Positions 10,553 through 32,592 of a DNA stretch of 32,592 nucleotides are shown piece by piece (the stretch's first letter is position 1; each line of letters starts with the position of its first letter). Position numbers and translations under genes: made by a program. Source of the DNA: a phage; sequence record PQ400057.1; one strand, 5' to 3'. Under the pieces are notes generated by a model that was given only the letters and a program-made list of their open reading frames with translations, made no database searches and was not told the origin of the DNA.

Positions 10553-10556
10553 ATAA

Positions 10557-10973: not shown

Positions 10974-10999
10974 AAGAAACCCTCCCGTAGTCGTATTGT

Positions 11000-11022
11000 T
11001 CTCCCTATAGTGAGTCGTATTA
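11000..11022 (-). promoter_or_regulatory. phage RNAP promoter phi13 (class III consensus)
   Basis: The reverse complement is TAATACGACTCACTATAGGGAGA, just upstream of gene 13. Confidence 0.85.
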
Positions 11023-11052
11023 ATTTCGAGCCACCACAGGGAGAACATTTAA

Positions 11053-13443: not shown

Positions 13444-13463
13444 TAGAGCCTCCTTATTTACTA

Positions 13464-14054: not shown

Positions 14055-14070
14055 ATAGTTCCTCCTTTAA

Positions 14071-14119
14071 GCAAAAAACCCCTCAAGACCCGTTTAGAGG
14101 CCCCAAGGGGTTATGCTAG
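14071..14119 (-). terminator. Tphi-type terminator for phage RNAP (GC hairpin plus U-tract)
   Basis: The reverse complement is CTAGCATAACCCCTTGGGGCCTCTAAACGGGTCTTGAGGGGTTTTTTGC, the T7 Tphi hairpin sequence, between genes 10 and 11. Confidence 0.85.
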
Positions 14120-15315: not shown

Positions 15316-15377
15316 ATGTATGTCTCCTTCTTAAGAAAGTTAAACAAAGAATAATTTCTAGAGGGAAACCGTTGTGG

Positions 15378-15400
15378 TCTCCCTATAGTGAGTCGTATTA
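15378..15400 (-). promoter_or_regulatory. phage RNAP promoter phi10 (class III consensus) with GGGAGACCACAACGGTTTCCC leader stem-loop
   Basis: The reverse complement is TAATACGACTCACTATAGGGAGACCACAACGGTTTCCCTCTAGAAATAA...AAGAAGGAGACATACATATG, the gene 10 promoter and leader. Confidence 0.9.
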
Positions 15401-15413
15401 ATTTCAGAGTCTA

Positions 15414-16337: not shown

Positions 16338-16416
16338 TATTATTGTCTCCTTAAAGTTGAACTACAGGAAGACCGAGTACTCCAACCTCTTGTCATCGCT
16401 CATTTCAAAGATGAGG

Positions 16417-16439
16417 TCTCCCTATAGTGAGTCGTATTA
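16417..16439 (-). promoter_or_regulatory. phage RNAP promoter phi9 (class III consensus)
   Basis: The reverse complement is TAATACGACTCACTATAGGGAGA, upstream of gene 9 and overlapping the gene 8 stop. Confidence 0.85.
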
Positions 16440-18047: not shown

Positions 18048-18061
18048 GTGTCACCTCCTGA

Positions 18062-18364
18062 TTAAATATTGATGCCGCCACCGGAGCTACGAGCCACACT
18101 CAAGGATTTCTTACCACCAGCACGGGCTTTCTTACGTCCGCTTTCGGTCTGTGCTTCGTCCTCAGTGGAGACCTCTTTCTCAGGTACGTCAACAATCTGT
18201 GCAGCAGGAGTTGCAGCAGCCTGTGGCACTTCCACTACCTGCGCTTCACCAGCGCCACCAGCCAGACCACTGGCAACCTGTTTAACCGGACGAGCCACTT
18301 CCTTAACGACTTTCTTAACGGACTTAGTGACTTTCTTCACGGCCTTCTTGACTTTCTTACCCAT
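18062..18364 (-). CDS. 7.3: tail/host-range protein 7.3
   Basis: The 100-aa Lys-rich ORF MGKKVKKAVKKVTKSVKKVVKE... matches T7 gp7.3. Confidence 0.85.
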   Translation of the reverse strand: MGKKVKKAVKKVTKSVKKVVKEVARPVKQVASGLAGGAGEAQVVEVPQAAATPAAQIVDVPEKEVSTEDEAQTESGRKKARAGGKKSLSVARSSGGGINI

Positions 18365-18367
18365 AAC

Positions 18368-18769
18368 TTATACCTCCTTAAAGTATACACGCATTGTCTC
18401 GCCTTCATGTTTACAGCGGGACACCCAATTGCAATCGTGGAGTTCTGCAAGGTTCTTAAAGCGTTTCGCTATGAATCGCTGTAAGCCCTTAGAGTCTGCC
18501 TCAGGATTAATAACAACGGACGTTATATCCAGAATGTCTCCTTTGTGGTGAATGTCACAGCTTACGCACCACGCGAAGTACGCTACATGTTTTCCGGTAG
18601 AGTCCAGAATGTACTCTTCACGACAACCGGACATGTCCATTACTTCGTCTACGTAGAGGCTGTAGCCCACAAAGTGTCCTTCGAATCCTTTAGGCAACCC
18701 AAGGTGCTCTACAGTCCACCGGATTGCACGGAAGCGACTCTTGGCCTCCACACATGTGAACGCAGACAT
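18368..18769 (-). CDS. 7: gene 7 protein (host range / virion)
   Basis: MSAFTCVEAKSRFRAIRWTVEHLGLPKGFEGHF... (133 aa from the ATG at 18769) matches T7 gp7. Confidence 0.85.
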   Translation of the reverse strand: MSAFTCVEAKSRFRAIRWTVEHLGLPKGFEGHFVGYSLYVDEVMDMSGCREEYILDSTGKHVAYFAWCVSCDIHHKGDILDITSVVINPEADSKGLQRFIAKRFKNLAELHDCNWVSRCKHEGETMRVYFKEV

Positions 18770-19035
18770 CACTTCTTGCCTCCAAATGCGGACTTACGGA
18801 TTGAAGATTTCATACGAGCGGAGCCATTGCCGCTGGCTTTAGACTTCGCTACGGAATCATCGCGTTCGACCTTGAGGTCTTTGCGTCCAGACACTTCGGT
18901 GCCTTCGGTATCCGTCTCATCAGAAGACCCACCGAACTCTACGCCAGACACTTCTTGGGTCAGTGGCGCTGGCTCAACGGCTCGAATCTGATTGGTATCC
19001 ATCTTCGGAACTTTAACTTTCGGTGAGAAACACAT
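18769..19035 (-). CDS. 6.7: virion protein 6.7
   Basis: The internal ATG at 19035 gives MCFSPKVKVPKMDTNQIRAVEPAPLTQEVSG... (88 aa), matching T7 gp6.7. GGGAGG is upstream. Confidence 0.8.
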   Translation of the reverse strand: MCFSPKVKVPKMDTNQIRAVEPAPLTQEVSGVEFGGSSDETDTEGTEVSGRKDLKVERDDSVAKSKASGNGSARMKSSIRKSAFGGKK

Positions 19036-19039
19036 AAGG

Positions 19040-19294
19040 TCAATCCTCCCCATCATCTCTTAGTTGTTCCTTGCGTAACTCAATCTCGTCAATGACGTTA
19101 GAGGCATACTGTAGGCCCTGAATGAAACCCAAGATGTGGGCTTCACTGCAACCATTGGCACGCATAAGTCCTATATGACCAGACGCTTCGAGGTACGCAT
19201 AGTTGAATCGAACCTGTAGATACTCAGCGGTTGCACGAGGTACATCTGGAATATCGTTAGGGTTCTTAAGTAAATGGTTAATAGGTGTTAGCAT
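19040..19294 (-). CDS. 6.5: gene 6.5 protein
   Basis: The 84-aa [33 protein letters not shown]... matches T7 gp6.5. Confidence 0.85.
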
Positions 19295-19348
19295 AATAAA
19301 GATTCCTCTTAGAGTTAAATCTTAAAGTAATAATCATAAAGGCCCCTA

Positions 19349-19371
19349 TCTCCCTATAGTGAGTCGTATTA
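19349..19371 (-). promoter_or_regulatory. phage RNAP promoter phi6.5 (class III consensus)
   Basis: The reverse complement is TAATACGACTCACTATAGGGAGA, upstream of gene 6.5. Confidence 0.85.
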
Positions 19372-19391
19372 ATTTAGGGACCTTGAGTTTA

Positions 19392-19505
19392 TCACTTAGT
19401 GTCGTGTAACGACTTGATTATTCGGGCTAAGTCCCAAAGGCCCCACGCAATGAGGCACACTCCGAGACCACAAAGACCAAGACCAATATACGCTACGGTC
19501 TCCAC
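19392..19505 (-). CDS. 6.3: small membrane protein 6.3 (37 aa)
   Basis: A short ORF (GTG start, AAGGAG 8 nt upstream) encodes ...YIGLGLCGLGVCLIAWGLWDLARIIKSLHDTK, resembling T7 gp6.3, between genes 6 and 6.5. The start codon is uncertain. Confidence 0.5.
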   Translation of the reverse strand: METVAYIGLGLCGLGVCLIAWGLWDLARIIKSLHDTK

Positions 19506-20395
19506 AGGTAAATCTCCTTGTCAATAAAGTTGTACTCGTTGAACCGGAGGATGCGAGCCATCTGGCCCTGCTTGATAATATCCTCTTCAGTCATACCAGC
19601 CTTAGCACCAATGGACTTAATGCAGTCCCAAAGCGTCTCATGAGGCTCAGGGTCGCGTTTAACCCATTTAGTGACCTCTTGGCCTTTGTTCTTGCCAGAC
19701 TTAAGCACAGACGTTTTAGGCTCGGTTATGAACGGGTTATTCAAGAAGTCCTCGGCAGTGTCTCCCCACCCAGCAATCCCTGAGTAACCATCGGTGATGT
19801 CACCTTTGATTGTCTGGAAGAGGTGCCACCAGTCAGCGGACTCTTCTGTCTGAGTAAGGATGTTACCAGTGGTACACCACAGGAAGTCACAGTTAGGTAT
19901 GGTCTTAAAGTCCTTATCGCACGAGATGATTACAGCCTTACGAGCACCGAATGCAGACGGATTGGAGGCAATAACTCCCATAACGTCATCACCCTCAAGC
20001 ATAGGCTCACGGATGCAATAGAACTCTTCGCGCTCAAAGAGAGCCTCAAGGAACTCAAAGTAACCTACAGGTTTCTTAGTTGCCTTACGGTTGGCCTTGT
20101 AGTTAGGGTCCACGAGTTCCTTACGCCAGTTCACACTATCGGTGAACGCAAGGACAATCGGAGCGCCTACCCAAGCCTTCTTGCGGGTCTCGTAGGACTT
20201 GATGGAATCCTCAAGAATCTGACGGGCCTTAGCGTGGTCACAGCAGCGGTGCCAAATCTCTTCCTCCCATGAGGCATCAAACTCAGCAGCACTCATTGCT
20301 TGGAAGACCAGCCAGTCACCGTCCATCACGAGGATACCCTTGTCATCACAGCCTTCGCGTAACTCATAAAATTGTTTAAGGTCAAGAAGTGCCAT
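19493..20395 (-). CDS. 6: 5'-3' exonuclease
   Basis: The 300-aa ORF MALLDLKQFYELREGCDDKGILVMDGDWLVFQAM... matches T7 gp6. Confidence 0.95.
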   Translation of the reverse strand: MALLDLKQFYELREGCDDKGILVMDGDWLVFQAMSAAEFDASWEEEIWHRCCDHAKARQILEDSIKSYETRKKAWVGAPIVLAFTDSVNWRKELVDPNYKANRKATKKPVGYFEFLEALFEREEFYCIREPMLEGDDVMGVIASNPSAFGARKAVIISCDKDFKTIPNCDFLWCTTGNILTQTEESADWWHLFQTIKGDITDGYSGIAGWGDTAEDFLNNPFITEPKTSVLKSGKNKGQEVTKWVKRDPEPHETLWDCIKSIGAKAGMTEEDIIKQGQMARILRFNEYNFIDKEIYLWRP

Positions 20396-20540
20396 TAAGT
20401 TTCTCCTCTAGCTCAGCCACGTATTCGTCAGCCTCCATCAGTTGATTCTTAAGGCTATCGTTCTCACGTTCCAGAGAGTCGATGTAGCCCTGCATATCGT
20501 TCCACGCATCGCGAGGAATTGTTACAGTGTCACGCACCAT
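20382..20540 (-). CDS. 5.9: RecBCD inhibitor 5.9
   Basis: The internal ATG at 20540 gives MVRDTVTIPRDAWNDMQGYIDSLERENDSLKNQLMEADEYVAELEEKLNGTS (52 aa), matching T7 gp5.9. The track ORF starts at an upstream TTG. Confidence 0.8.
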   Translation of the reverse strand: MVRDTVTIPRDAWNDMQGYIDSLERENDSLKNQLMEADEYVAELEEKLNGTS

Positions 20541-20749
20541 CAGACACACCCTCCCATACGTTTCAGAAAGCGAGTACCAGAAGCCGTGATTTCCCAAGCG
20601 CCACCATTACGTCCACTCGTAGTCAGACACGAGATGTGACCACGGGATGCGGCCTCAGCTACGAGGCTCGCGTTGTTACGTACATAGTTTGACTGGAAAG
20701 TCTTAGGGCAACTTTTGATTGCTTGCAGCACTTTCAGGTAGTCAGACAT
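20540..20749 (-). CDS. 5.7: gene 5.7 protein
   Basis: The 69-aa ORF MSDYLKVLQAIKSCPKTFQSNYVRNNASLVAEAAS... matches T7 gp5.7. Confidence 0.85.
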   Translation of the reverse strand: MSDYLKVLQAIKSCPKTFQSNYVRNNASLVAEAASRGHISCLTTSGRNGGAWEITASGTRFLKRMGGCV

Positions 20750-21048
20750 CAGAACACCTCCCGTACTGTTGCAGGAGATAGCTTGAAGGAGTCCTTATCT
20801 GAATACTCTTCGTGCATGTCCTTGATTGCCTCACGGAATGCTGTACGTACTACGAATGTCATCAAGCCTTCCATACCGTATGTCAGGAACTGGACAATCA
20901 TTTCCTTCTGTTTACCATTGGGGACAATTGCACCAGAGCCTACCTGCTTACACAGGTGCAGCATGTCTTTCTCTAAGATTGCCTGAACGTCAGACGACAT
21001 CTTGGCGGTAACGTCGAAGGACACTTTAAATTTCTTTGTCATAGCCAT
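20749..21048 (-). CDS. 5.5: gene 5.5 protein (H-NS binding in T7)
   Basis: The internal ATG at 21048 gives MAMTKKFKVSFDVTAKMSSDVQAILEKDMLHLCKQ... (99 aa), matching T7 gp5.5. GGAG is upstream. Confidence 0.85.
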   Translation of the reverse strand: MAMTKKFKVSFDVTAKMSSDVQAILEKDMLHLCKQVGSGAIVPNGKQKEMIVQFLTYGMEGLMTFVVRTAFREAIKDMHEEYSDKDSFKLSPATVREVF

Positions 21049-21067
21049 AATAATTTCTCCTATAGAA

Positions 21068-23182
21068 TTAGTGACATACAGCCCAATTAGGACCCATCTT
21101 ACCTTCGGTATCCAGAAGGCAACGGAAGTTCCAGTGGTCTCCAACCCAGCGCATTGCTTCTTGTGCTGTCTCAATGACAACCTGAGCAATCTCTTCGGTA
21201 CGGCAACCTACTTGTATTTCGTCATGTACCCATGCCATGTACGCAAAGTCCCCATCCCAGCCGTGCTTCAAGCCTTTCGCTACGAGCATCTCTTCGGTCT
21301 TGATAATCCAAAGTTTGCAGATGAGAGCACCAGCAGATTGCAGTAGGGTATTCAGGGCAGCGTGAGGACTACGAACGTGTACCTTACGACCATCCAGACC
21401 TTTAATCCAGCGGCGTTTCCACTTGACTTGTTGCTCACCAGCTACCCACTGAGAGGACTCGACAAGTGTCTGTTGGATAGACTCGCGGAGTGCTGCAATC
21501 GCAGGGGTGTTCTCAAGGAATTTCTTCTTGAGTTCCTTACCGCGCTCTTTACCAGCACCAACAATCTGTCCAATCTTCTCATCACCAGCACCATAAAGGA
21601 ACCCATAGATGAACGTCTTGGCGTTATCGCGGGTAGGCAATTCGGCAGCCATCTGGTTCTTAGTATGGATGTCACCGTTAAGAATCTCGTGGGCGTACTC
21701 ACCGTTATCAAAGCGAGCCATAAAGTGGGCTAAGCAGCGTAGCTCCAGACCGGATGCGTCGATGCCAGCCTGAACCCAAGGCTTACCAGTTAATCCATCC
21801 AAATGATGCTCAGCGCCAAAAGCAGCACGACACTGCTCCCCATAAGGAGAACGGACACCGGGTACCTGTGCTAGGTTAGGGAAAGCGTGAGTAGCGCGCC
21901 CAGTAACAGCGCCGTTGGGATTAACAGAACCATGAATCTTACCGTCCTCAGCAACGTAACGAAGCCATGCCTTGTCTCCCTCAGCAGCCTGTCCTATTCG
22001 CTTCTGAATCATCAAGTATTCTTTAATGAGGTCGATGGCAGCTTGCTTCTCAGGGTCATCTACACGTACTCCTTCGAGTACCTCATCGTCCACCACAGGT
22101 GCACCCTTATCGGTGTGCTTGGTCGGGACCCATCCAGCCTCTTGGAGTTTCTTCTGAATGTGGTCACGAGACGATGGGTTAAACACCACGTGCTCAACTG
22201 GGGTGTAAGGAGCACCAGCAACGTACTCTCGGGTATCCAGTTCGCAAGGCTCACGGCCTTCTCGCTGTGCCTTGTTCTTAGGCTTCTTAAAGATACCACC
22301 AACTTTAGGTGTCTTAATGCGAGGGTATTTAGGCAGTGGCTTGCCGGTCCTCGGATGGCAGAACATTTCGGTGCCACCTTTAGGTTGATACCATGAGCCG
22401 AACGTTTCTGTCAGCTTACGGAGCAACTCAGAGCGACGGGCAGCTAACTCTACGTACAACTCCTCGATTGCCTTAGCGTCAAATGGGAAACCATTACGCT
22501 CCTGTTTAGCCAACAACCAAGCTGCTCTATGTTCAACATCAACAGCTTCGATAGAGTCTTTCCAAAAGATTATAGCATCATAATTAACGTGCTCTAAACC
22601 TAAAGGGAAATAGTGTTTGTCAGAGAGTAGCTTCTCAAGGAGAGCCTTAGTGACCACAACGTCCTGAACGTTATAGGCCATCATCTCTTCGTTGAAGTTC
22701 CACCACTCCATTCCGTCAACGTATTCTTCACCCTGCTCTTCAAGCATACGCTTAAAGTCATCCTTGTATTCACCTTTCATTTCACCTAAGCGATAACCCC
22801 ACGCCTCCAGAGCGTGAGACCCAAAGCGTTTCCCCGGCAACTTACCTGAACGCAGAAGACCCATATCGGTGTCTTTCAGGTTGGAATGAATCAAGCGTGA
22901 CAGCACAAGGGTGTCAATACAGTTCTCACGAGGAAGGTGGAACTCTCGGTTCAATTGTAACTTTGCCAGTTTGGTCAATGCAGGAACGTCATACTTGTGA
23001 CCGTTGTGGAACACAATAAGACCGCCTCGTGCAACCTCGGCTTCCAGCGCATCCAGATACGCACCGAAGTCACTCGGACGGTAGCTTACGTACTCAGCGG
23101 TGGAGTAGTCGTAGATAACCCCGCAGTGGAACTTAGTGACGCTCTCTAAGAGGGCGTTAGCTTCGATGTCAGAAACGATCAT
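21068..23182 (-). CDS. 5: DNA polymerase (family A)
   Basis: The 704-aa ORF MIVSDIEANALLESVTKFHCGVIYDYSTAEYVSYRPSDF... matches T7 gp5. Confidence 0.95.
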   Translation of the reverse strand: MIVSDIEANALLESVTKFHCGVIYDYSTAEYVSYRPSDFGAYLDALEAEVARGGLIVFHNGHKYDVPALTKLAKLQLNREFHLPRENCIDTLVLSRLIHSNLKDTDMGLLRSGKLPGKRFGSHALEAWGYRLGEMKGEYKDDFKRMLEEQGEEYVDGMEWWNFNEEMMAYNVQDVVVTKALLEKLLSDKHYFPLGLEHVNYDAIIFWKDSIEAVDVEHRAAWLLAKQERNGFPFDAKAIEELYVELAARRSELLRKLTETFGSWYQPKGGTEMFCHPRTGKPLPKYPRIKTPKVGGIFKKPKNKAQREGREPCELDTREYVAGAPYTPVEHVVFNPSSRDHIQKKLQEAGWVPTKHTDKGAPVVDDEVLEGVRVDDPEKQAAIDLIKEYLMIQKRIGQAAEGDKAWLRYVAEDGKIHGSVNPNGAVTGRATHAFPNLAQVPGVRSPYGEQCRAAFGAEHHLDGLTGKPWVQAGIDASGLELRCLAHFMARFDNGEYAHEILNGDIHTKNQMAAELPTRDNAKTFIYGFLYGAGDEKIGQIVGAGKERGKELKKKFLENTPAIAALRESIQQTLVESSQWVAGEQQVKWKRRWIKGLDGRKVHVRSPHAALNTLLQSAGALICKLWIIKTEEMLVAKGLKHGWDGDFAYMAWVHDEIQVGCRTEEIAQVVIETAQEAMRWVGDHWNFRCLLDTEGKMGPNWAVCH

Positions 23183-23200
23183 ATTGATTTCTCCTGTTGA

Positions 23201-23608
23201 TTATTGTAACTTAACAATCTCTGCATATGAGACAACTGTCAAGAAACCTGTGTGAATCATATCGGTCTTATAGGCAACGATTGCACCTTGCGGGTTAACA
23301 CCGTTGATGTATGACACTTGTGCAAATTTGCCACTCACTGAGCGTACATAGCCATAGCCACCACAGACTCCAGTGTCAACCTTGACCCAATCTCCAGCCT
23401 TGATGTGGGTCATAGTGTCCTTATCGAACACCTTATGACTCAGCTTGGTAACTTCTGGTTTCTTCCAGCCAGTCTGTCTTGTCCAAGTCCAGCCTAAGTT
23501 CTTCAAGATATGAACAGCGGAGCGAGTCTTAGCTTCATGGTACTTAACGTCCTCAAGTTCAGCTTCCAGCTTAGCGATTTCTGCTTGGATAACTTTAGGG
23601 TCACGCAT
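23201..23608 (-). CDS. 4.7: gene 4.7 protein
   Basis: The internal ATG at 23608 gives MRDPKVIQAEIAKLEAELEDVKYHEAKTRSAVHIL... (135 aa), matching T7 gp4.7. Confidence 0.8.
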   Translation of the reverse strand: MRDPKVIQAEIAKLEAELEDVKYHEAKTRSAVHILKNLGWTWTRQTGWKKPEVTKLSHKVFDKDTMTHIKAGDWVKVDTGVCGGYGYVRSVSGKFAQVSYINGVNPQGAIVAYKTDMIHTGFLTVVSYAEIVKLQ

Positions 23609-23613
23609 GATAA

Positions 23614-23637
23614 TATCTCCTATAGTGAGTCGAATAG
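23614..23637 (-). promoter_or_regulatory. phage RNAP promoter phi4.7-like (class II variant)
   Basis: The reverse complement is CTATTCGACTCACTATAGGAGATA, with the core GACTCACTATAGGAGA and weaker upstream positions. It is immediately 5' of gene 4.7. Confidence 0.6.
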
Positions 23638-23681
23638 TATTCATGAAGGCCACCACTTTGGCGACCTTGGGTATACCACTC

Positions 23682-23951
23682 TTAGCTATCAATCTTGTCG
23701 AGGATAACCATAGCTTCATCTACGCGACCAGCTTCATGGATTGCTGTCACGGCAGCTTTGGTAAGCGCATTGACCAGACGCAGTGCTTGCTCATCTGTCA
23801 ACGTCATACGCTGAGTGTGATTCTTAGAGGACTTAGAGTCCTTCCAGCGGTAAACCATAGTCGCCTTACCGTTGCGAACGTTGATGTGGACTCGACGGTT
23901 CCACTGGTCAGCGGTATCGGATAGACGGATAGTTTCAGCTACGTTTGACAT
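23682..23951 (-). CDS. 4.5: gene 4.5 protein
   Basis: The 89-aa ORF MSNVAETIRLSDTADQWNRRVHINVRNGKATMVYRWKD... matches T7 gp4.5. Confidence 0.85.
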   Translation of the reverse strand: MSNVAETIRLSDTADQWNRRVHINVRNGKATMVYRWKDSKSSKNHTQRMTLTDEQALRLVNALTKAAVTAIHEAGRVDEAMVILDKIDS

Positions 23952-23971
23952 AATGGGTTTCTCCTGTTTGA

Positions 23972-24184
23972 TTACTCAAATAATTTGGAAAGCTGTTGAG
24001 CTTGGTTTGCTACGCGGGCAGCTTCTGTAACTTTATTGGATGCACTGTCAGCCAGTTCGTTGGAGCGAATCGCTAGTGCGCGTGACTGTGTGGCCTCTTT
24101 ACGAGCCTCATCGTTCAGCCGCTTGGCTTCCACGTTATACATACGAACCAGTAGTTGGCCTAATTTCTTAATCAGTTTGAACAT
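23972..24184 (-). CDS. 4.3: gene 4.3 protein
   Basis: The 70-aa ORF MFKLIKKLGQLLVRMYNVEAKRLNDEARKEATQSRALAIR... matches T7 gp4.3. Confidence 0.85.
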   Translation of the reverse strand: MFKLIKKLGQLLVRMYNVEAKRLNDEARKEATQSRALAIRSNELADSASNKVTEAARVANQAQQLSKLFE

Positions 24185-24188
24185 GGGT

Positions 24189-24211
24189 GTCTCCTTTAGT
24201 GAGTCGTATTG
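24189..24211 (-). promoter_or_regulatory. phage RNAP promoter phi4.3 (class II)
   Basis: The reverse complement is CAATACGACTCACTAAAGGAGAC, directly upstream of gene 4.3. Confidence 0.75.
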
Positions 24212-24229
24212 AAATCGTCAAGAATCCTG

Positions 24230-25936
<1,707 letters not shown>

Positions 25937-25998
25937 TCAAGTTAGACATGGCCTCTATAGCTTCCTCCTTGTGTTGAAAGAAAGGGAAACCGTTGTGG

Positions 25999-26021
25999 TC
26001 TCCCTTTAGTGAGTTCAATTA
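25999..26021 (-). promoter_or_regulatory. phage RNAP promoter phi3.8-type (class II) with the same GGGAGACCACAACGGTTTCCC leader as phi10
   Basis: The reverse complement is TAATTGAACTCACTAAAGGGAGACCACAACGGTTTCCC, lying between gene 3.5 and gene 4. No gene 3.8 follows it here. Confidence 0.75.
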
Positions 26022-26022
26022 A

Positions 26023-26478
26023 TTATCCACGGTCAGAAGTGACCAGTTCGTTCTTCTCCCACCAACGCTTAAGGTCGAACGATGGGCAAGCCTTAGGTGC
26101 CACATCGTGATGTGCGCGAAGAACAGCGCCTTCGTACTTAGCCAGAAGTGTGACAAGCAGTGAGCGGAGGGATTGCATTTGGGCTGGCGTAAAGTTAGCG
26201 TCGAACTTGCCTTTATCGTCGATACCGCCTACAAGGCAGACACCAATAGAGTTGTGGTTGTAACCCTTAGCGTGAGAGCCTACAGCCATCTCATCTCGGC
26301 CTTCCTCCACAGTACCATCGCGCTTGATGATAAAGTGATATCCCACATCGAGCCAACCTTGCTCTTTGTGCCACTGGCGAATCTCACGGACACCAACATT
26401 CTGACTCGGCTTGGTAGCAGAGCAGTGAACAAAGATTGCGTCGGTAGATTCACGTTGTTTAAACTGTACACGAGCCAT
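26023..26478 (-). CDS. 3.5: lysozyme (N-acetylmuramoyl-L-alanine amidase; in T7 also an inhibitor of the phage RNAP)
   Basis: The 151-aa ORF MARVQFKQRESTDAIFVHCSATKPSQNVGVREIRQWHKEQGW... matches T7 gp3.5. Confidence 0.95.
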   Translation of the reverse strand: MARVQFKQRESTDAIFVHCSATKPSQNVGVREIRQWHKEQGWLDVGYHFIIKRDGTVEEGRDEMAVGSHAKGYNHNSIGVCLVGGIDDKGKFDANFTPAQMQSLRSLLVTLLAKYEGAVLRAHHDVAPKACPSFDLKRWWEKNELVTSDRG

Positions 26479-26933
26479 TATTTCTTTCCTCCCTTCGATT
26501 GTTTCAGCTTGTCAAATGGCACCTCCTTTTTGGGTTCTTTGAGCCATTCTACAGGAATTAATTTGTCAGCAAACAGAATACCATGCTTCTCACACCATTC
26601 ACCGTAACTGGTCGGAGACCCTTTGTACAGCTTGGTGCGCGAGCTTGAGAACACCAGTCGGATGTCCAGTTCAGGAAACTGTTCGCGAATCAATAAGTGT
26701 TTCTTTCGGTCGTCACTCTCCCATAAACCTTTGGTTTCAATAAAGATTCCGTTAGGCAGCAGGAAGTCTGGAGTATACACATGGTTGCTCGCAGGGACAA
26801 CGTAAGGGATTTTCCACAGTTCATAGTCGAACTTAATTCCCTTACCCTCTAGCTGCTTAGAGACCTTATCTTCTAGGCCGGAACGGAATGTCCCGACCTT
26901 TCTGATACCACGCGCAGCGTATGCGCCAGCCAC
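26478..26933 (-). CDS. 3: endonuclease I (Holliday junction resolvase)
   Basis: The 151-aa ORF MAGAYAARGIRKVGTFRSGLEDKVSKQLEGKGIKFDYE... matches T7 gp3. It overlaps 3.5 by TAATG. Confidence 0.95.
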   Translation of the reverse strand: MAGAYAARGIRKVGTFRSGLEDKVSKQLEGKGIKFDYELWKIPYVVPASNHVYTPDFLLPNGIFIETKGLWESDDRKKHLLIREQFPELDIRLVFSSSRTKLYKGSPTSYGEWCEKHGILFADKLIPVEWLKEPKKEVPFDKLKQSKGGKK

Positions 26934-27632
26934 TTAGAAGTCTCCGTCTGAGTCTTCTTCGTAAGAGCCTTCGTCGTCTTCGTCCCAGCTTTCTTCGTCG
27001 CGTGGTTTGCTCGCTTTGGCAGAACCAGAGGCAACATAGCCGTTCTCTTCAACTTCGTCAGCCCAATCGTCTTCACCACCACCAAAGGTAGCCAGTTCGA
27101 CCAGCATTACGGATTCCAGTTGCAGCTTAACGCTCGCACCTACAGCAGTGTTCCACTTGTACGGAACCAGAGAGTATTTGACTTTCAGTTTAGAGCCACC
27201 ACCGATAATCGGAACGTCTTCCATCTTCTTACCTTTGGAGTCAACCACAACAAGATTGATGTGCTTGGTCTCTTTGGTCTTCTTGTCTTGGAAAGACGCG
27301 TAGCATTTGAACTTAAAGGTAGTCGTACCGTCACCGTTATCGAAGAACGGCATGTCACCTTCATACGGTTTCAGCGGTTTCTTACCACGAGCTACCGCAG
27401 GCGGGTTCGCTTCGTATTCCTCAACGGCAGCAGCATAAGCCTCTTCGTGACACTTCACGATTTCATCGACCATGCGTTGGCAGCGCGGGTCTTTGTTGGG
27501 AATAGTCAGGTCAACTTTGTAGACACCGCGAGGGTTCCCAAAGCCACGCTCTTCGTTACCGTAGTCAGGCTTAGAGATGTAAGCGTAAGGTTCAGCAGTG
27601 CCCAGCGCAGAGGTGAAAATCTTCTTAGCCAT
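26934..27632 (-). CDS. 2.5: single-stranded DNA-binding protein
   Basis: The internal ATG at 27632 gives MAKKIFTSALGTAEPYAYISKPDYGNEERGFGNPRG..., with an acidic C-terminal tail ending DGDF, matching T7 gp2.5 (232 aa). Confidence 0.95.
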   Translation of the reverse strand: MAKKIFTSALGTAEPYAYISKPDYGNEERGFGNPRGVYKVDLTIPNKDPRCQRMVDEIVKCHEEAYAAAVEEYEANPPAVARGKKPLKPYEGDMPFFDNGDGTTTFKFKCYASFQDKKTKETKHINLVVVDSKGKKMEDVPIIGGGSKLKVKYSLVPYKWNTAVGASVKLQLESVMLVELATFGGGEDDWADEVEENGYVASGSAKASKPRDEESWDEDDEGSYEEDSDGDF

Positions 27633-27677
27633 AATATTAATCTCCTTTAGGTTTCGTTTGTTTCTCAAAGGGAGTCT

Positions 27678-27697
27678 TCTCCCAATAGTGAGTCGTA

Positions 27698-27700
<3 letters not shown>
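27678..27700 (-). promoter_or_regulatory. phage RNAP promoter phi2.5
   Basis: The reverse complement is TAATACGACTCACTATTGGGAGA (-1 is T instead of A), overlapping the end of gene 2 and upstream of gene 2.5. Confidence 0.8.
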
Positions 27701-28005
<305 letters not shown>

Positions 28006-28016
<11 letters not shown>

Positions 28017-28545
28017 AGCACTTATCCTTATGTTTCTCATACAGTTCACCATAGAATCCAGCTTTCGCCATGTCTTTCTCTAAGTAAGCCAGTTCTGACT
28101 TCTTACCAGCGCGTAGGCGGTACTTAAGGATGTTCCCTAAGCAATATCCTTTGAACTGCTCACGAGTCATTGAACGGGCAATCACTTCGATAGCCTCAAT
28201 GTCGTCGAACAGCATGTAATGGGAAGGCTTAGTGACACCTTCAATTGACTCAGCGGAAGGCTGGTCATCTGTCGGAGTTACCTCAAGTTTATTCAGATGA
28301 GGCTTACGCGGGTCCATCGCTCGGATTTCACCTAAGGTTATCTTTTGATCATTGTTTGCGGGGCAGAGGTGGCAAGGGACATTTGAGCAGAGCATCCCGC
28401 AGCCATTCAAATCATCCGGGCGACCATCGTTATTGTCTACCAACTTCATGATCATCTCTTGTTCACGTTCGGTCATACTGTTAGCTCCTTTATTACAGGT
28501 GTGTGGATAACGGTCGTCTTTCTCTAAGCAAGCTATGCATCCCAT
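28006..28545 (-). CDS. 1.7: gene 1.7 protein (nucleotide kinase in T7)
   Basis: The 179-aa [53 protein letters not shown]... matches the T7 gp1.7 core. Confidence 0.85.
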
Positions 28546-28805
28546 CAGAACACCTCCTTGATACGTTTGAGTAACAGACGGACGAACGGGAAGCGGGTCA
28601 CTGCCACACTAAGAACCGGACGTTTCTTGTCTATTGCTTTCTCAAAGTCACCACGGGTGATAATGATGTGGACGCTCGGTGCCAGAGGAACTGTGTTACC
28701 AATGAGAGGTAACTTAGCTCGGCGCTCGCTCGCACATACGATTGAACGGTCAGCACGGCGAACCGTGAAATTCTCAAGACTTTTGTTGTAATGAAGTCGA
28801 AACAT
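28545..28805 (-). CDS. 1.6: gene 1.6 protein
   Basis: The 86-aa [43 protein letters not shown]... matches T7 gp1.6. Confidence 0.85.
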
Positions 28806-28810
28806 ATGGT

Positions 28811-28833
28811 GTCTCCTTTAGTGAGTCGTATTA
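28811..28833 (-). promoter_or_regulatory. phage RNAP promoter phi1.6 (class II)
   Basis: The reverse complement is TAATACGACTCACTAAAGGAGAC, immediately upstream of gene 1.6. Confidence 0.8.
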
Positions 28834-28920
28834 GGCGTGACCATCTGGCATATCGTCATCACTACAGTGGAGCGAAAGGCATCCTATGATGACAATGAGT
28901 AATGGCATTAAGTACATCAT
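28831..28920 (-). CDS. 1.5: gene 1.5 protein (29 aa)
   Basis: A small ORF MMYLMPLLIVIIGCLSLHCSDDDMPDGHA, with AAGGAGG 8 nt upstream, sits between phi1.5 and phi1.6. It is not on the ORF track. Confidence 0.55.
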   Translation of the reverse strand: MMYLMPLLIVIIGCLSLHCSDDDMPDGHA

Positions 28921-28926
28921 GATGTG

Positions 28927-28949
28927 TACCTCCTTTAGTGAGTCGTATT
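28927..28949 (-). promoter_or_regulatory. phage RNAP promoter phi1.5 (class II)
   Basis: The reverse complement is TAATACGACTCACTAAAGGAGGTAC; it is the first promoter encountered from the genome left end. Confidence 0.8.
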
Positions 28950-28987
28950 AAACGCAGAAAAGCCCACCCTAAGGTGAGCCAGTGTGT

Positions 28988-30007
28988 TTACATCTTCTCT
29001 TGAGGGTTGTCCTCGGTGCCACGGAAGCAGGTGAAGGAGGGGTGTCTGAGACTCCCATCGTTAGTTACCTCCATAAATCCAATCTGGCAAGCCCAGCCAT
29101 TATAGTAGTCCTCGCCATGTTCTTTAACGTTAGCTGTAAATTCATCCATTAAGGCGCGAGAGATGTTATTGGCATCGACAAGACGACCAGTCTCAAGAAG
29201 CACCTTGAATCCAATTACCTTACCTTCGTTAGCAAGTCCTTCTGTTCCCCAGTTTACACCATTAATGATTCCGTCAGCTTCCTCAAGAGGCTTAAGTTTC
29301 CACCAGCCGGACTTCTTACCGCGCTTGTAGATGCACATCGGGTCTTTCACAATGAGACCCTCATGTCCTTCTTCACGCTTCTTCTCGTACAGTTGCTGTA
29401 GTTCTACCATATCGTAGACCTCGTAAGACTCAGCCGCTTGCCATTCGATTTCAGGGAAGTATTCCTGTAGCAGAGGCAGCATGTTCTTAACGTGTTCCTG
29501 CATGAGCAACGTCATGACATCACAGTCTTCCCCAGACTCCACGATGTGCAGAGGGAGGATAGCGTACAGTCGGACACTCAGATGTTTGGTATCCAACGCG
29601 AACTCAACCTTGGACCCCTTGAGTGGTGGTACACCGCCAACGTCGAACTCAAAGTTATTCTTGTTGAGCCACTTGGTACGCAGTAGGCCGGACCCTGTGT
29701 TAAAGTCTACGCCCTTGACCATTAGTTCCCCATCGAGCATAAAGCCATCCTTGTAGAAACAACGGTCATCGTTAAGCAGACGCTTCCAGCGAACATCAAA
29801 CCCGTTTAAGTGCTCCAGTGCCGGAATCGTTTTAGATACACGAGAGAGCCAGCAACTGTTAGCTGTATTGTCTACGCAGATGTTACCGCGCACACCATCG
29901 TACTTAATGTCAGCGATAAGATACCCAGCGTTATCCAGAGCTTTCTTAATGGCAGACTCTACGAAAGATACTGCCTTGTATGGTGAAGTCTTAAAGTTAA
30001 TAATCAT
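28988..30007 (-). CDS. 1.3: ATP-dependent DNA ligase
   Basis: The 339-aa ORF MIINFKTSPYKAVSFVESAIKKALDNAGYLIADIKYDGVRG... has the ligase KxDG adenylation motif and matches T7 gp1.3. GAGG is 8 nt upstream of the ATG. Confidence 0.95.
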   Translation of the reverse strand: MIINFKTSPYKAVSFVESAIKKALDNAGYLIADIKYDGVRGNICVDNTANSCWLSRVSKTIPALEHLNGFDVRWKRLLNDDRCFYKDGFMLDGELMVKGVDFNTGSGLLRTKWLNKNNFEFDVGGVPPLKGSKVEFALDTKHLSVRLYAILPLHIVESGEDCDVMTLLMQEHVKNMLPLLQEYFPEIEWQAAESYEVYDMVELQQLYEKKREEGHEGLIVKDPMCIYKRGKKSGWWKLKPLEEADGIINGVNWGTEGLANEGKVIGFKVLLETGRLVDANNISRALMDEFTANVKEHGEDYYNGWACQIGFMEVTNDGSLRHPSFTCFRGTEDNPQEKM

Positions 30008-30408
30008 ATGTATTTCCTCAGTTTGCCATTTCGTATGTAGTGTATTGTTGAAGCAGCCACATTAAGTGCCCTTGCTAGCTCCCTGCCGGAGCGAGGGTCC
30101 GTCCGTATCATATCGACCTGCTCATTAGTTATCTTTCTAGCACCACGGCCTTTGATAGCCATGTCTCTAAGGTTGTCTGCCTGTGTGCCCTTGGTTAGAT
30201 GTGCAGGATTTACACACCACCTATTGTCACAGGAGTGTAGGACTATATCGCTCTTATTCAACTCACCGTTGAACAGAATGTACGAAGCCCTATGGGCATA
30301 TATAGGCTTACCATGCAGGCGGAACCGTCCGTAACCATTGGGCTGGATACTACCAATCCAACGGGACAAGAAGAGACACCAAAAGGTAAACCCAAGGGTC
30401 AACCCCAA
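30004..30408 (-). CDS. HNH (His-Me finger, HNH_3-like) endonuclease ORF; no canonical start, open frame runs into the terminal repeat, possibly 5'-truncated or a pseudogene
   Basis: The translation ...NGYGRFRLHGKPIYAHRASYILFNGELNKSDIVLHSCDNRWCVNPAHLTKGTQADNLRDMAIKG contains the GYGRF...AHR...HxCDN..C.NP.HL core. The first in-frame ATG is downstream of the catalytic motif; the track start is a TTG inside the repeat with no SD. The stop overlaps the ligase ATG (ATGA). Confidence 0.55.
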   Translation of the reverse strand: MGLTLGFTFWCLFLSRWIGSIQPNGYGRFRLHGKPIYAHRASYILFNGELNKSDIVLHSCDNRWCVNPAHLTKGTQADNLRDMAIKGRGARKITNEQVDMIRTDPRSGRELARALNVAASTIHYIRNGKLRKYI

Positions 30409-30507
30409 CCCTTAGGGACCCTCAAAGTCAACTGAAAGTTGACTCAAGGTGATTGGCTGGACTTTAGGGACCCCTATGGGGGAACTTTAGGTCCGTAAAC
30501 TGTGAGA
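30361..30507. repeat. terminal repeat homolog (single copy in this circular-style window); concatemer junction at about 30507/30508
   Basis: The reverse complement starts TCTCACAGTTTACGGACCTAAAGTTCCCCCATAGGGG...GTCAACTTTCAGTTGAC...GGGTTGGGGTTGACCCTTGGGTTT..., colinear with the 160-bp T7 terminal repeat (TCTCACAGTGTACGGACCTAAAG...), and is preceded by ...AAAATCTGAGTGACTA as at the T7 right end. The inner boundary is approximate. Confidence 0.7.
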
Positions 30508-30747
30508 TAGTCACTCAGATTTTTATGGTATATTTTAAAGGACCCTCTAGGAACTCCCTATGCCCTCTCTAAGACCCTCTTTAGGTTCCACTGATAGGAG
30601 GGCCTATCTTTAGGTATAGACCTTACGGATAGACCATTAGAGGCTCTTTATGGGTATACCTTAAGACTTGACTCTATAGGGATGAAGTGGTGTGATGCAA
30701 TCATACCGCTGAATCCCTCGGTGAGCCATCAGTCGGTCAGGAAGACC

Positions 30748-30897
30748 CTAATCGCTACAAGTGAGTAGAGAGCAAACTGTAGACTCCAGTGAACTGAGGT
30801 CTCCAGTAAGAGATGCGTACCCAAGGGCAGCACAAAGTACCACAAGAAATCGGTAGGTGACTCTATGCCGCAACAAGGTCAACAATAAGCGGAACAT
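30748..30897 (-). CDS. 19.5: gene 19.5 protein (49 aa)
   Basis: The ORF MFRLLLTLLRHRVTYRFLVVLCAALGYASLTGDLSSLESTVCSLLTCSD, with AAAGGAGGG upstream, lies downstream of phiOR and matches T7 gp19.5. It is not on the ORF track. Confidence 0.7.
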   Translation of the reverse strand: MFRLLLTLLRHRVTYRFLVVLCAALGYASLTGDLSSLESTVCSLLTCSD

Positions 30898-31051
30898 GAG
30901 TCTCCCTCCTTTATGTTGGTCTTTAAGTTAAGGTGATATTAATACAATATAATCACCATTCTTGGAGGTCACTTTAGGTACACCATTATGCATACTTTAT
31001 GCACTCTATAAGTATTCATTCAGTATCTATATAGTAACCTTTCGTCCCTCC

Positions 31052-31074
31052 TCTCCCTATAGTGAGTCGTATTA
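31052..31074 (-). promoter_or_regulatory. phage RNAP promoter phiOR (class III consensus) near the genome right end
   Basis: The reverse complement is TAATACGACTCACTATAGGGAGA, between gene 19 and gene 19.5. Confidence 0.8.
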
Positions 31075-31155
31075 ATTTATCGTGTCTTTTCAGTAACTTA
31101 AAGAACTGACCATCCGTGGTCTATAGTGCATCCCTATGCAGTCTCAGTGAATAAA

Positions 31156-32592
31156 TCACCACTCAATGAAAGACGTACCGTAACCCTCATCGTCCTCAGA
31201 GTATACATCAACTCCTCCCACAGACATCTCAATGATGTGCGTAGCAGCGACCGTAGGGCGCATCATGTGCTCCTCAAGGAAGTCAGCAAGCACTTCACCT
31301 TCTACCTTAACGGAATCCAACTGCATGGACTCGCGGAGATACTCAATGCCTAACGCAAGGGCATCCAATCGGTCATCATGTGCCAGAGCGCCTTTCTCAC
31401 GAGTGATACGGGTCATCTGGTAGAACAGTGAATACTTAACGTCATGCTTACCGTCTACGTCACGAGCGGACTGGTAGTCGGCCCTAATGACCTCATCACG
31501 AATGACAAGGCGGTGAGTCTGCATGACTGGCTCAAGGGTATCACAAATACGCATCTCCTTCATACCACGAGCACGAATCTCCTCCATTGCACAGTTGTGG
31601 TGTTTAAGAAGGATAGGACTGAACACCTTACCAAACATGCCGTCACCGAAGTTACTCTCATAGACGACCGTCTGGACTCCCCATTGCTTAGCTTTCCTAG
31701 CGAGCAACTCAAGGGTCTTATCGGAGTAACCATCGCGGAAACCTCCAGCTTCCATTAGGTAGATGTAACCGTTCAGGGTGAACAGCACAGCGTAACCTGT
31801 TTCGTCCTTACCGCGACCACTAGGGTCAATGACCAGAATCTTCTGTTGGTACTGACCAGAGTTGTTGGAGCAATCATGGTAAGTATGCAGGTCATCACCC
31901 TTAAGGCCAACGTTAGGAAGGTCCTCAATGATGTTCTGACGGTTCGGAAGCCATTGGTAATGCATTGGAGCCTTCTCTAAGTCTAAGGCCGCTACGATAG
32001 CGTCACGGAGCCTCAGAGGGTACTTCTCGGCATCACTCAGGTTCGGGTTAAGCATGAACTGTAGTGTGAAGCCAGCCTTACCGTATTCCAACTCACGCTC
32101 ACGGAGGTCCTCTCGGTCGAAGCGCACAGGGTCCGTAGGAGTCCCGGCGAGGGCCTCAGGGTTCTCATCGTACTCAGCACGTAGCATAGGGGCAAGTCGC
32201 TGTGCGTAATAGAGGTTCTCTTCGCGAGTCCTTGGGTACAGAGCAGGCCAGATGATAGTGGTATACCCACGGTTATCCTCAAGTTCCTTATAGAGAGTCA
32301 TCTCGGTCTGAGGTGTGCCAAGGTAGATAACACGAGAGGAAGGCAGCGGTTTAAGCAACGCAGCGAACTCCTGAACTAGAGTCCATAGCTTCTCACGGGC
32401 ACCCATAGTCGCACTGTTAGACGGAATCTCAACATCATCCGCAATGATAATGTCAGCACGGCTACCAGTTAACTGACCAGTGATACCTACCGATTTTACA
32501 CTAGGAGAGTGGTCAGGGTTAGCTGGACCTACATCAAAGCTAATTACAGAATCACGCTGTCCGGGTCTTGGCTTCAATTCAGCAAGGAAAGG
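31156..32592 (-). CDS. 19: terminase large subunit (DNA maturase B), C-terminal part; 5' portion is at window start (1..323)
   Basis: The ORF is open to the window edge and ends ...[17 protein letters not shown], matching the T7 gp19 C-terminus. Upstream codons at the edge ([14 protein letters not shown]) continue the window-start fragment (...[10 protein letters not shown]), with one nucleotide missing across the join. Confidence 0.95.

What the first reader, a model, noticed from the sequence alone, without database searches (positions are those of the whole stretch)
30004..30897. T7-type genome with a full set of phage-RNAP promoters but no RNA polymerase gene and no early region
On the minus strand the order is gene 19, phiOR, 19.5, right-end junction, terminal-repeat homolog, then immediately an HNH ORF and ligase 1.3. 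In T7 the roughly 5.8 kb between the terminal repeat and gene 1.3 carries the host-RNAP promoters A1-A3, 0.3 (Ocr), 0.7 kinase, gene 1 (883-aa RNAP), 1.1, 1.2, the primary origin and phiOL/phi1.1/phi1.3. None of that is present, and no ORF in any frame has the size or character of a single-subunit RNAP. Yet 13 promoters match the T7 RNAP consensus and sit in front of essentially every operon. As written, this genome cannot transcribe itself and has no host-RNAP entry promoters. Candidate explanations are (a) a defective or satellite-like T7 derivative using a helper's RNAP, (b) a deletion phage maintained on an RNAP-expressing host, or (c) an assembly artefact at the terminal repeat.
Basis: partly seen in the sequence, partly recalled or inferred. 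Interest (0 to 1): 0.9.

Follow-up and report, generated by a model that had tools for sequence, protein, structure and literature searches.

The report
T7-like phage genome missing early region
The window is an otherwise intact T7-type phage genome whose 6.5 kb early region, including the RNA polymerase gene, has been replaced by one clean join at the natural end of the phage DNA, so it is most likely a truncated or defective copy of an ordinary phage and not a phage that lives without its polymerase.

Summary
The window is one circularly closed unit (1 nt short, inside gene 19) of a T7-group phage. It is 93-94% identical to coliphages Bas102 and Bas104. Every T7 gene from 1.3 to 19.5 is intact, and 13 T7-consensus promoters lie on one strand. 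There is no gp0.3-0.7, gp1 (RNAP), gp1.1 or gp1.2, no phiOL/1.1A/1.1B/1.3, and no A1-A3-type host promoters.

About 6.55 kb is missing relative to Bas104. The join (30363|30362) fuses the terminal repeat, 1-2 nt short of the mature right end (...TTGTCCC[T]), to codon 19 of an HNH gene, with at most 1 nt of shared sequence. The conserved partner half-site ATCTGTTA, present in 21 T7/T3-type relatives, is gone. The first promoter lies 1.56 kb from the left end. gp16 carries no known transcription-independent ejection mutation.

As written, the genome can neither transcribe itself nor, by the T7 model, enter a cell or be matured normally. The best reading is a one-off join of a matured DNA end to an internal break (chimeric or dead-end molecule, or incomplete assembly). 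A helper-dependent defective genome is the main rival. Reads are needed to decide. There is a precedent: RefSeq Enterobacter phage E-3. Interest is low to moderate.

The parts
31159..32592 (-). Gene 19 (large terminase), C-terminal part, aa 109-586, plus stop at 31156-31158
   Evidence: tblastn with T7 gp19 gives 99% identity. It runs off the window end.
3..323 (-). Gene 19 N-terminal part, aa 1-107. With the window end it closes a circle lacking exactly 1 nt (codon 108).
   Evidence: Against Bas104, the window's minus strand starts at base 1350 and ends at base 1348.
31052..31074 (-). phiOR, an exact 23-nt T7 consensus promoter
30748..30897 (-). Gene 19.5 (49 aa)
   Evidence: Sequence read. 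tblastn matches T7 gp19.5 at 95%.
30363..30507 (-). Terminal repeat, single copy, 145 nt. It starts TCTCACAGTTTACGG and ends ...GTGTCTCTTCTTGTCCC. It lacks the universal final T and the following ATCTGTTA.
   Evidence: Alignment to the T7, phiA1122, T3 and Bas104 ends. No second copy is present.
30362..30363 (-). Non-homologous junction between the mature right end (minus 1-2 nt) and codon 19 of an HNH gene. At most 1 nt (C) is shared. 6,551 bp are missing relative to Bas104 (3578 to 10130).
30004..30363 (-). HNH endonuclease remnant (codons 19-137 plus stop). The HNH_3 domain is kept. The start codon, RBS, the first 18 codons including CxxC, and the upstream phi1.3 promoter are lost.
   Evidence: tblastn gives 93.5% to the Bas104 endonuclease. 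Pfam HNH_3 E = 6e-8. DNA identity is 97.8%.
28988..30007 (-). Gene 1.3 DNA ligase, intact (339 aa)
   Evidence: The best database relative is 93% identical.
28928..28950 (-). phi1.5, the first phage promoter downstream of the left end, 1,557 nt from the terminal repeat start
3673..28833 (-). Remaining class II/III promoters. Promoter start positions are phi1.6 28833, phi2.5 27700, phi3.8 26021, phi4c 24841, phi4.3 24211, phi4.7 about 23637, phi6.5 19371, phi9 16439, phi10 15400, phi13 11022 and phi17 3695. The span also holds intact genes 1.5 to 17.

Best explanation
The window is a truncated copy of an ordinary T7-group (Teseptimavirus-like) coliphage, not a phage lineage that lives without an RNA polymerase. 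One non-homologous join connects a matured right genome end (the terminal repeat, 1-2 nt short of its last base) to an internal break at codon 19 of the HNH gene upstream of ligase 1.3. This removes about 6.5 kb: the left-end repeats, phiOL, the A1-A3 promoters, genes 0.3-0.7, gene 1, the origin region with phi1.1A/B, genes 1.1 and 1.2, and phi1.3. Shown: the anatomy and the losses. Inferred: the left partner is an already cleaved DNA end and the product lacks what T7-type genomes need to enter, transcribe and be matured. The join is therefore most likely a one-off event captured by sequencing or assembly. It could be a chimeric or dead-end circularised sub-genomic molecule, or an incomplete assembly. 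The real, propagating phage in the sample would carry a normal early region with its own T7-type RNAP.
For: (1) The junction lies 1-2 nt from the mature end. The window reads ...TCTTCTTGTCCC|GTTGG. T7, T3, phiA1122, Bas102, Bas104 and 16 further loci read ...TCCCT|ATCTGTTA, and in linear records that boundary equals the annotated repeat length. A random deletion endpoint would land there less than about 1% of the time. (2) The right partner is mid-gene (HNH codon 19) with at most 1 nt of homology and no repeat. This is an accident, not a designed or selected boundary. (3) Several functions are lost. There is no RNAP or any early protein. There is no sigma-70-like promoter near the left end, although the same scan finds the A1-A3 trio in Bas104. 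The first phage promoter lies 1,557 nt in, whereas T7 gp16 clamps entry at about 850 bp pending transcription (PMC8954989). gp16 is wild type at G737, I754 and E761. The conserved ATCTGTTA half of the boundary motif is gone. (4) All other genes are intact with no decay, so the event is very recent. (5) Every relative with readable upstream sequence has RNAP in the canonical place, including the closest ligase relative. (6) Incomplete T7-like 'genomes' lacking the early region exist in RefSeq. In KNP3 the early region is simply a run of Ns.
Against: The window closes as a circle inside gene 19, far from the junction. The junction is therefore internal to the assembled sequence and was presumably spanned by reads, and no repeat could have caused a collapse. 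A rare chimeric link should normally lose to the full-coverage true path. The missing terminal T and the 1-nt overlap fit in vivo microhomology joining or template switching better than simple blunt ligation of an intact end. Enterobacter phage E-3 shows a clean internal early-region deletion that may be a real defective genome. No reads are available, so the frequency of the junction in the sample is unknown. The entry and maturation arguments are extrapolated from T7 to a phage whose gp16 is only 66% identical.
Confidence: 0.5

Rival explanations
1. It is a real, transmissible defective viral genome (a cheater or DI-type particle) of a wild T7-like phage. It arose by joining a genome right end to an internal break. 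It is packaged from concatemers through its retained terminal repeat and right-end signals. It is expressed from its 13 promoters by the RNAP of a co-infecting full-length helper.
For: The junction is internal to a closed assembly with no repeat to explain a misjoin. All class II/III genes and promoters are intact. The terminal repeat, phiOR and the right-end region are retained. T7 genomes deleted for gene 1 are known to arise (about 1e-8) and to outgrow wild type when RNAP is supplied in trans (Yin 1993, as summarised in PMC8877645). E-3 is a possible second natural example that retains phiOL.
Against: No promoter of either kind lies within 1.56 kb of the left end, and gp16 is wild type at the known clamp-release positions. 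The conserved ATCTGTTA half of the repeat-boundary motif is lost. phiOL and the primary origin region are lost. The coincidence of the endpoint with the mature end is unexplained by selection. Dominance of such a genome needs many high-multiplicity passages.
Confidence: 0.27
2. It is a deletion phage propagated, deliberately or accidentally, on a host that makes T7 RNA polymerase, such as a DE3 lysogen or an RNAP plasmid strain. On such a host, loss of gene 1 is tolerated or even favoured.
For: The promoters are exact T7 consensus. The RNAPs of close relatives are 98-99% identical to T7 gp1, so T7 RNAP from a DE3 host would serve. Gene-1 deletion mutants overtake wild type on RNAP-supplying hosts (PMC8877645). 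BL21-type strains are used as isolation hosts for related phages (host fields). This would explain a clean single-genotype assembly.
Against: The entry and maturation objections are the same as for the helper model. The known laboratory gene-1 deletions keep the left-end promoters (own knowledge). Nothing in the sequence points to engineering: the mid-codon HNH break has no scar or vector.
Confidence: 0.08
3. It is an autonomous or satellite-type T7-like element with a new way of obtaining a T7-type RNAP, such as a virion-packaged enzyme, a second genome segment, or a host-encoded enzyme in nature.
For: The only support is the bare observation that promoters are present and the polymerase gene is absent.
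Against: The boundary cuts a gene mid-codon and coincides with a DNA end. There is no compensating feature, no novel ORF, and no integrase or satellite-type functions. The full structural module is present. No relative out of about 70 with readable context shares the architecture except E-3, which has a different junction.
Confidence: 0.02

Closest known systems
Coliphages MeretOppenheim_Bas102 (PQ850620) and AnnaIndermaur_Bas104 (PQ850595), and phage T7 itself
   Same: The gene order from 1.3 to 19.5 is colinear. DNA identity over 24 kb is 93-94% to Bas102 and Bas104 and about 90% to T7. The consensus promoters are identical, the terminal repeat and right end are the same type, and Bas104 has the same HNH insertion upstream of ligase.
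   Different: They carry the 6.5 kb left region with phiOL, A1-A3, ocr, kinase, RNAP, 1.1, 1.2 and phi1.3, and the window does not. At 93-94% identity the window is a distinct lineage. No closer relative was found (best ligase match 93%).
T7 gene-1 deletion genomes (defective genomes of Yin 1993; laboratory gene-1 deletion testers)
   Same: The RNAP gene is deleted while T7 promoters are retained, so growth depends entirely on T7 RNAP supplied in trans (PMC8877645).
   Different: As far as I know, those deletions are internal to the early region and keep the left-end promoters and the repeat boundary. Here the whole left end up to the last base of the terminal repeat is gone and the other endpoint truncates an HNH gene.
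Enterobacter phage E-3 (NC_028795, 31,522 bp; RefSeq exemplar of Teetrevirus E3)
   Same: It is a T3/T7-type 'complete genome' deposited as a permuted, exactly closed circle in reverse orientation. It has no early region and no RNAP, and gene 19, 19.5 and the terminal repeat are followed directly by a truncated gene at the start of class II.
   Different: The E-3 deletion runs from about 420 to 6777 in T3 coordinates. It keeps the full repeat boundary motif and phiOL and truncates the ligase. It is an internal deletion, not a join at the DNA end.
Enterobacter phage KNP3 (NC_047856, 44,911 bp)
   Same: It is a T3-type record with no RNAP anywhere and with the early region missing between the left end and phi1.3.
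   Different: The missing region is a run of Ns (a scaffold gap) and the record has duplicated genes. It is an evident assembly problem rather than a clean junction.

Membership tests
T7-group phage (Autographiviridae, Studiervirinae, Teseptimavirus-like) | Colinear T7 gene order and homologous class II/III proteins | tested here: met
   All T7 genes from 1.3 to 19.5 that the lineage carries match at full length. DNA identity is 93-94% to Bas102 and Bas104.
T7-group phage (Autographiviridae, Studiervirinae, Teseptimavirus-like) | Phage-encoded single-subunit RNA polymerase (the family hallmark) | tested here: not met
   tblastn with T7 and Bas104 gp1 gives a best E of 0.44. No unassigned large ORF remains.
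T7-group phage (Autographiviridae, Studiervirinae, Teseptimavirus-like) | Phage-RNAP promoters of T7 specificity in front of the operons | tested here: met
   13 sites, all on one strand, 7 within 1 mismatch of the 23-mer; shuffles give about 0.1.
T7-group phage (Autographiviridae, Studiervirinae, Teseptimavirus-like) | Direct terminal repeat with the conserved boundary ...TCCCT|ATCTGTTA | tested here: not met
   The repeat is present (30507..30363), but the final T and the ATCTGTTA half are absent. 21 relatives have the full motif.
Defective viral genome / DI-type helper-dependent deletion mutant | Lacks an essential trans-acting function but is otherwise derived from the parent virus | tested here: met
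   RNAP and the whole early region are absent, and the rest is intact.
Defective viral genome / DI-type helper-dependent deletion mutant | Retains the cis signals for entry, replication and packaging | tested here: inconclusive
   The terminal repeat, phiOR and the right-end region are kept. Lost are phiOL, A1-A3, the phi1.1A/B origin region and half of the boundary motif, and the first promoter lies 1,557 nt in.
Defective viral genome / DI-type helper-dependent deletion mutant | Co-occurs with and is propagated by a full-length helper | not testable with these tools
   No reads and no sample are available. The junction was not found in any searchable collection.
Phage satellite (P4/PICI-type) | Lacks its own virion genes and hijacks those of a helper; carries its own integration or replication and interference functions | tested here: not met
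   The complete T7 structural, packaging, lysis and replication modules are present, with no extra ORFs.
Assembly misjoin or incomplete assembly | The breakpoint coincides with a natural DNA or contig end | tested here: met
   The left partner ends 1-2 nt from the mature right terminus.
Assembly misjoin or incomplete assembly | A repeat is shared by the two joined sides (repeat collapse) | tested here: not met
   At most 1 nt is shared. The window contains no repeat other than the promoters.
Assembly misjoin or incomplete assembly | Junction-spanning reads are lacking or under-represented, and an early-region contig is present in the same data | not testable with these tools
   No reads are available. 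The source was not found, and three proteins are absent from the exact-match index.

The most novel reading that the evidence does not exclude
The window is a naturally arisen, transmissible RNAP-less cheater genome of a wild T7-like coliphage. It was made by joining a matured right end to an internal break and is maintained by co-infection with its full-length parent. Together with Enterobacter phage E-3, it would indicate that early-region-less defective genomes recurrently dominate T7-type phage stocks or populations. It would also show that such a genome can enter cells and be matured without left-end promoters or the ATCTGTTA half-site.
Probability: 0.2. Interest if true: 0.55.

Novelty: new member of a known kind. 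Interest (0 to 1): 0.25.

Why it matters
If the junction is an artefact or a dead-end molecule, the value is practical. It flags a 'complete circular' T7-like genome that is really about 82% of a genome. It also shows that two RefSeq species exemplars (E-3 and KNP3) have the same defect, which matters for taxonomy, completeness benchmarks and gene-content statistics of Autographiviridae. If it is a real transmissible defective genome, it would be a natural example of a DNA-phage cheater. It would also challenge parts of the T7 model, namely transcription-dependent genome entry from left-end promoters and the sequence requirements at the terminal-repeat boundary for maturation. Either way it is not evidence for RNAP-independent transcription of a T7-type genome.

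Tried and rejected
Source tracing failed. The junction sequence gave no hit in IMG/VR, JGI metagenomes, GTDB genome contigs, PLSDB, RefSeq E. coli genomes or INPHARED (no record covering at least 80%). Exact-protein look-ups of the ligase, the HNH ORF and the capsid found nothing. The closest ligase is 93% identical and sits in a normal 40.2 kb contig with RNAP.

RNAP hidden elsewhere or diverged is rejected by tblastn and by full ORF accounting.

Repeat-mediated collapse at the junction is rejected, because at most 1 nt is shared and the terminal repeat is present only once.

A satellite-like element is rejected, because the full virion and replication modules are present.

Adaptation to a promoterless left end through known gp16 clamp-release mutations was not seen.

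Long-read error as the cause of the oddities is rejected, because there are no frameshifts in any conserved gene.

I considered host-read subtraction against a DE3 genome, but it would remove only gene 1, not positions 161 to 6.5 kb, and would not create a clean join.

I considered that the window is a rotated linear record whose ends were abutted. This does not explain the 1-nt gap lying exactly at the window boundary in gene 19, so I rate it less likely, but I cannot exclude it.

Literature searches for T7 packaging-signal requirements and for comments on E-3's missing RNAP gave nothing usable. Yin 1993 itself is not held.
Full report
WHAT IS THERE

All genes of the window lie on the minus strand, in T7 order. 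tblastn with the T7 proteome gives full-length, gap-free or nearly gap-free matches for gp1.3, 1.5, 1.6, 1.7, 2, 2.5, 3, 3.5, 4A, 4.2, 4.3, 4.5, 4.7, 5, 5.5, 5.7, 5.9, 6, 6.3, 6.5, 6.7, 7, 7.3, 8, 9, 10A, 11-19 and 19.5. It gives no hit for gp0.3, 0.4, 0.5, 0.6A, 0.7, 1, 1.1 or 1.2. The same holds with the early proteins of the closer relative Bas104 (best RNAP hit E = 0.44). Every ORF over 150 aa is accounted for, so no diverged polymerase is hidden.

The closest genomes are coliphages Bas102 (93.6% over 24 kb) and Bas104 (93.0%); T7 is about 90%. The best ligase relative among 5.8 billion proteins is 93% identical. It lies in a normal 40.2 kb contig ordered terminase, ocr, kinase, RNAP, 1.1, 1.2, ligase.

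THE WINDOW IS ONE CLOSED UNIT

gp19 residues 1-107 are encoded at 323..3 and residues 109-586 at 32592..31159. Against Bas104, the minus strand of the window starts at base 1350 and ends at base 1348. The sequence is therefore a circular or concatemeric unit of 32,593 nt with one base lost at the closure. No conserved gene has a frameshift. I infer that the natural ends of the assembled sequence are in gene 19 and that the junction discussed below is internal to it.

PROMOTERS

Twelve sites within 6 mismatches of TAATACGACTCACTATAGGGAGA lie on the minus strand. None lie on the plus strand, and shuffles give 0.08. A core search adds phi4.7 near 23637.

The 13 sites correspond one-to-one to T7 phi1.5, 1.6, 2.5, 3.8, 4c, 4.3, 4.7, 6.5, 9, 10, 13, 17 and OR. 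The four missing T7 promoters (OL, 1.1A, 1.1B, 1.3) are present in Bas104 at 3892, 9468, 9544 and 10048, all inside the segment the window lacks.

A sigma-70 scan finds nothing in 28700..31200 (expected 3.5) and only chance-level hits elsewhere. In Bas104 the same scan recovers three rightward A1-A3-like promoters at 3979, 4105 and 4213.

THE JUNCTION

Relative to Bas104, 6,551 bp (3578 to 10130) are absent.

On the left of the join is the terminal repeat, 30507..30363. It starts TCTCACAGTTTACGG, like T7 and phiA1122. It ends ...GGTGTCTCTTCTTGTCCC.

In T7, T3, phiA1122, Bas102, Bas104 and 16 further T7/T3-type loci the repeat ends ...TCCCT and is followed by ATCTGTTA. In the linear records with determined ends this boundary falls exactly at the annotated repeat length: 160, 148 and 231 nt. 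Two relatives (L073, L081) have the identical GTGTCTCTTCTTGTCCC followed by TATCTGTTA.

The window therefore stops 1-2 nt short of the mature right terminus and lacks the conserved downstream half-site.

On the right of the join the sequence continues at codon 19 (CGT TGG...) of the HNH endonuclease that Bas104 carries between genes 1.2 and 1.3. DNA identity there is 97.8%.

At most one base (C) is shared by the two sides. The terminal repeat occurs only once, and the only repeats in the window are the promoters.

The HNH remnant keeps its HNH_3 domain. It has lost its start codon, ribosome-binding site, 18 codons including a CxxC pair, and its promoter. The TTG 'start' at 30408 is just an open frame running back into the repeat.

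FUNCTIONAL CONSEQUENCES

As written, the genome has several defects.
- It has no RNAP.
- It has no host-RNAP promoters.
- It has no phiOL.
- It lacks the phi1.1A/B region, which in T7 is the primary origin (own knowledge).
- Its first phage promoter, phi1.5, lies 1,557 nt from the left end.

In T7, gp16 is thought to clamp the entering genome at about 850 bp, and the rest enters by transcription. The mutations G737D, I754T and E761K release this clamp (PMC8954989). The window's gp16 is wild type at all three positions, as are its relatives.

The right half of the 17-nt motif spanning the maturation cut is missing. Its conservation between T3 and T7, whose repeats are otherwise dissimilar, suggests that it matters for end formation. 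That is an inference and was not tested.

Even with RNAP supplied in trans, this genome should therefore be handicapped at both entry and maturation. This extrapolates from T7 to a phage whose gp16 is 66% identical.

INTERPRETATION

An endpoint within 2 nt of a physical DNA end is very unlikely for a random deletion. It points to an event that used an already cleaved, matured right end. The other endpoint, mid-codon in a non-essential homing-endonuclease gene with no homology, looks accidental. All other genes are pristine, so the event is recent.

The most economical reading (confidence about 0.5) is a one-off join that does not represent a propagating lineage. It could be a chimeric or dead-end circularised sub-genomic molecule, or an incomplete assembly. 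The true phage would have a normal early region.

Several points count against this reading. The junction is internal to a closed assembly, and no repeat can explain a collapse. The loss of the terminal T with a 1-nt overlap looks more like in vivo microhomology joining or template switching than like blunt ligation.

The main rival (about 0.27) is a real helper-dependent defective genome. Gene-1-deleted T7 genomes are known to arise at about 1e-8 and to outgrow wild type when RNAP is provided in trans (Yin 1993, cited in PMC8877645).

A variant of that rival (about 0.08) is propagation on a T7-RNAP-expressing host. This is plausible because the promoters are exact T7 consensus and the RNAPs of relatives are 98-99% identical to T7 gp1.

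A genuinely new RNAP-independent or satellite lifestyle has no support (about 0.02). The element carries the complete virion, packaging, lysis and replication modules and nothing extra.

PRECEDENTS FOUND

Among 80 IMG/VR loci carrying a ligase relative, every locus with readable upstream sequence has RNAP between the left end and the ligase, with one exception.

The exception is Enterobacter phage E-3 (NC_028795, 31,522 bp), the RefSeq exemplar of Teetrevirus E3. It is an exactly closed, permuted, reverse-oriented circle lacking T3 coordinates of about 420 to 6777. It keeps the full repeat boundary and phiOL and truncates the ligase.

Enterobacter phage KNP3 (NC_047856) also has no RNAP. There the early region (T3 641 to 6509) is a run of Ns, and several genes are duplicated, so it is an evident assembly problem.

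RNAP-less T7-type 'genomes' are therefore already in the databases, for reasons that include assembly failure. The window differs from them in having its junction at the DNA end.

WHAT COULD NOT BE DONE

The source of the window could not be found. Junction read support, coverage, and the presence of an early-region contig or helper could therefore not be checked. Those data, or the simple PCR and plaque tests listed under next steps, would decide between the explanations.

VERDICT

This is a truncated or defective T7-group genome of a known kind. The exact coincidence of the junction with the mature DNA end is a curiosity. Interest is 0.25.

Noticed in passing
window 1..3 and 32592 (gene 19 codon 108): The window closes on itself with exactly one nucleotide missing. 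Against Bas104, base 1349 is absent and gp19 residue 108 is split. This would frameshift the large terminase if the circle were taken literally. It is probably an end-trimming or closure error of the assembly.
   Followed up: yes
L066/L084 = Enterobacter phage E-3, NC_028795 (junction at L066 about 9992-10000): This RefSeq species exemplar (Teetrevirus E3, 31,522 bp) has no early region and no RNAP. It is an exactly closed circle lacking T3 coordinates of about 420 to 6777. phiOL is fused to a ligase truncated at residue 62. It is either a real defective genome or an incomplete assembly.
   Followed up: partly
L086 = Enterobacter phage KNP3, NC_047856 (about 14634-14734, and 1-11400): This RefSeq record has no RNAP anywhere. 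The early region (T3 641 to 6509) is replaced by a run of Ns. The genes for the ssDNA-binding protein, the RNAP inhibitor and the capsid are duplicated, which indicates a poor assembly.
   Followed up: partly
window 1403..2008 (-) and 1944..3620 (-): A 201-aa ORF with a Caudo_TAP tail-fibre-assembly domain (E = 2e-9) follows and overlaps the end of gene 17. Gene 17 matches T7 only over residues 1-296. The receptor-binding half and a chaperone have apparently been swapped in, unlike T7.
   Followed up: partly
window 3693..9955 (-) versus 15414..16337 (-): Mosaicism is strong. gp16 and gp15 are only 66% and 80% identical to T7 (94% to Bas104 for gp16), whereas gp9, gp5.7 and the first 107 residues of gp19 are 100% identical to T7.
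   Followed up: no
window 30391..30416 (-), inside the terminal repeat: A terminator-like hairpin (11 pairs, followed by TTTACCTTTT) lies in the terminal repeat between phiOR/19.5 and the junction. It is shared with relatives and its function was not examined.
   Followed up: no
whole window: Apart from the truncated remnant at 30004..30363, the genome lacks all the HNH-type and small optional T7 genes (1.4, 1.8, 2.8, 3.8, 5.3, 7.7). It also lacks the intron-borne HNH that Bas104 has in its DNA polymerase gene.
   Followed up: no
21 T7/T3-type loci (e.g. L003 160|161, L085 231|232, L001 3579|3580): The motif ...TCCCT|ATCTGTTA spanning the right boundary of the terminal repeat is conserved across T7- and T3-type phages whose repeats are otherwise dissimilar. 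This suggests that it is part of the maturation cleavage signal.
   Followed up: partly
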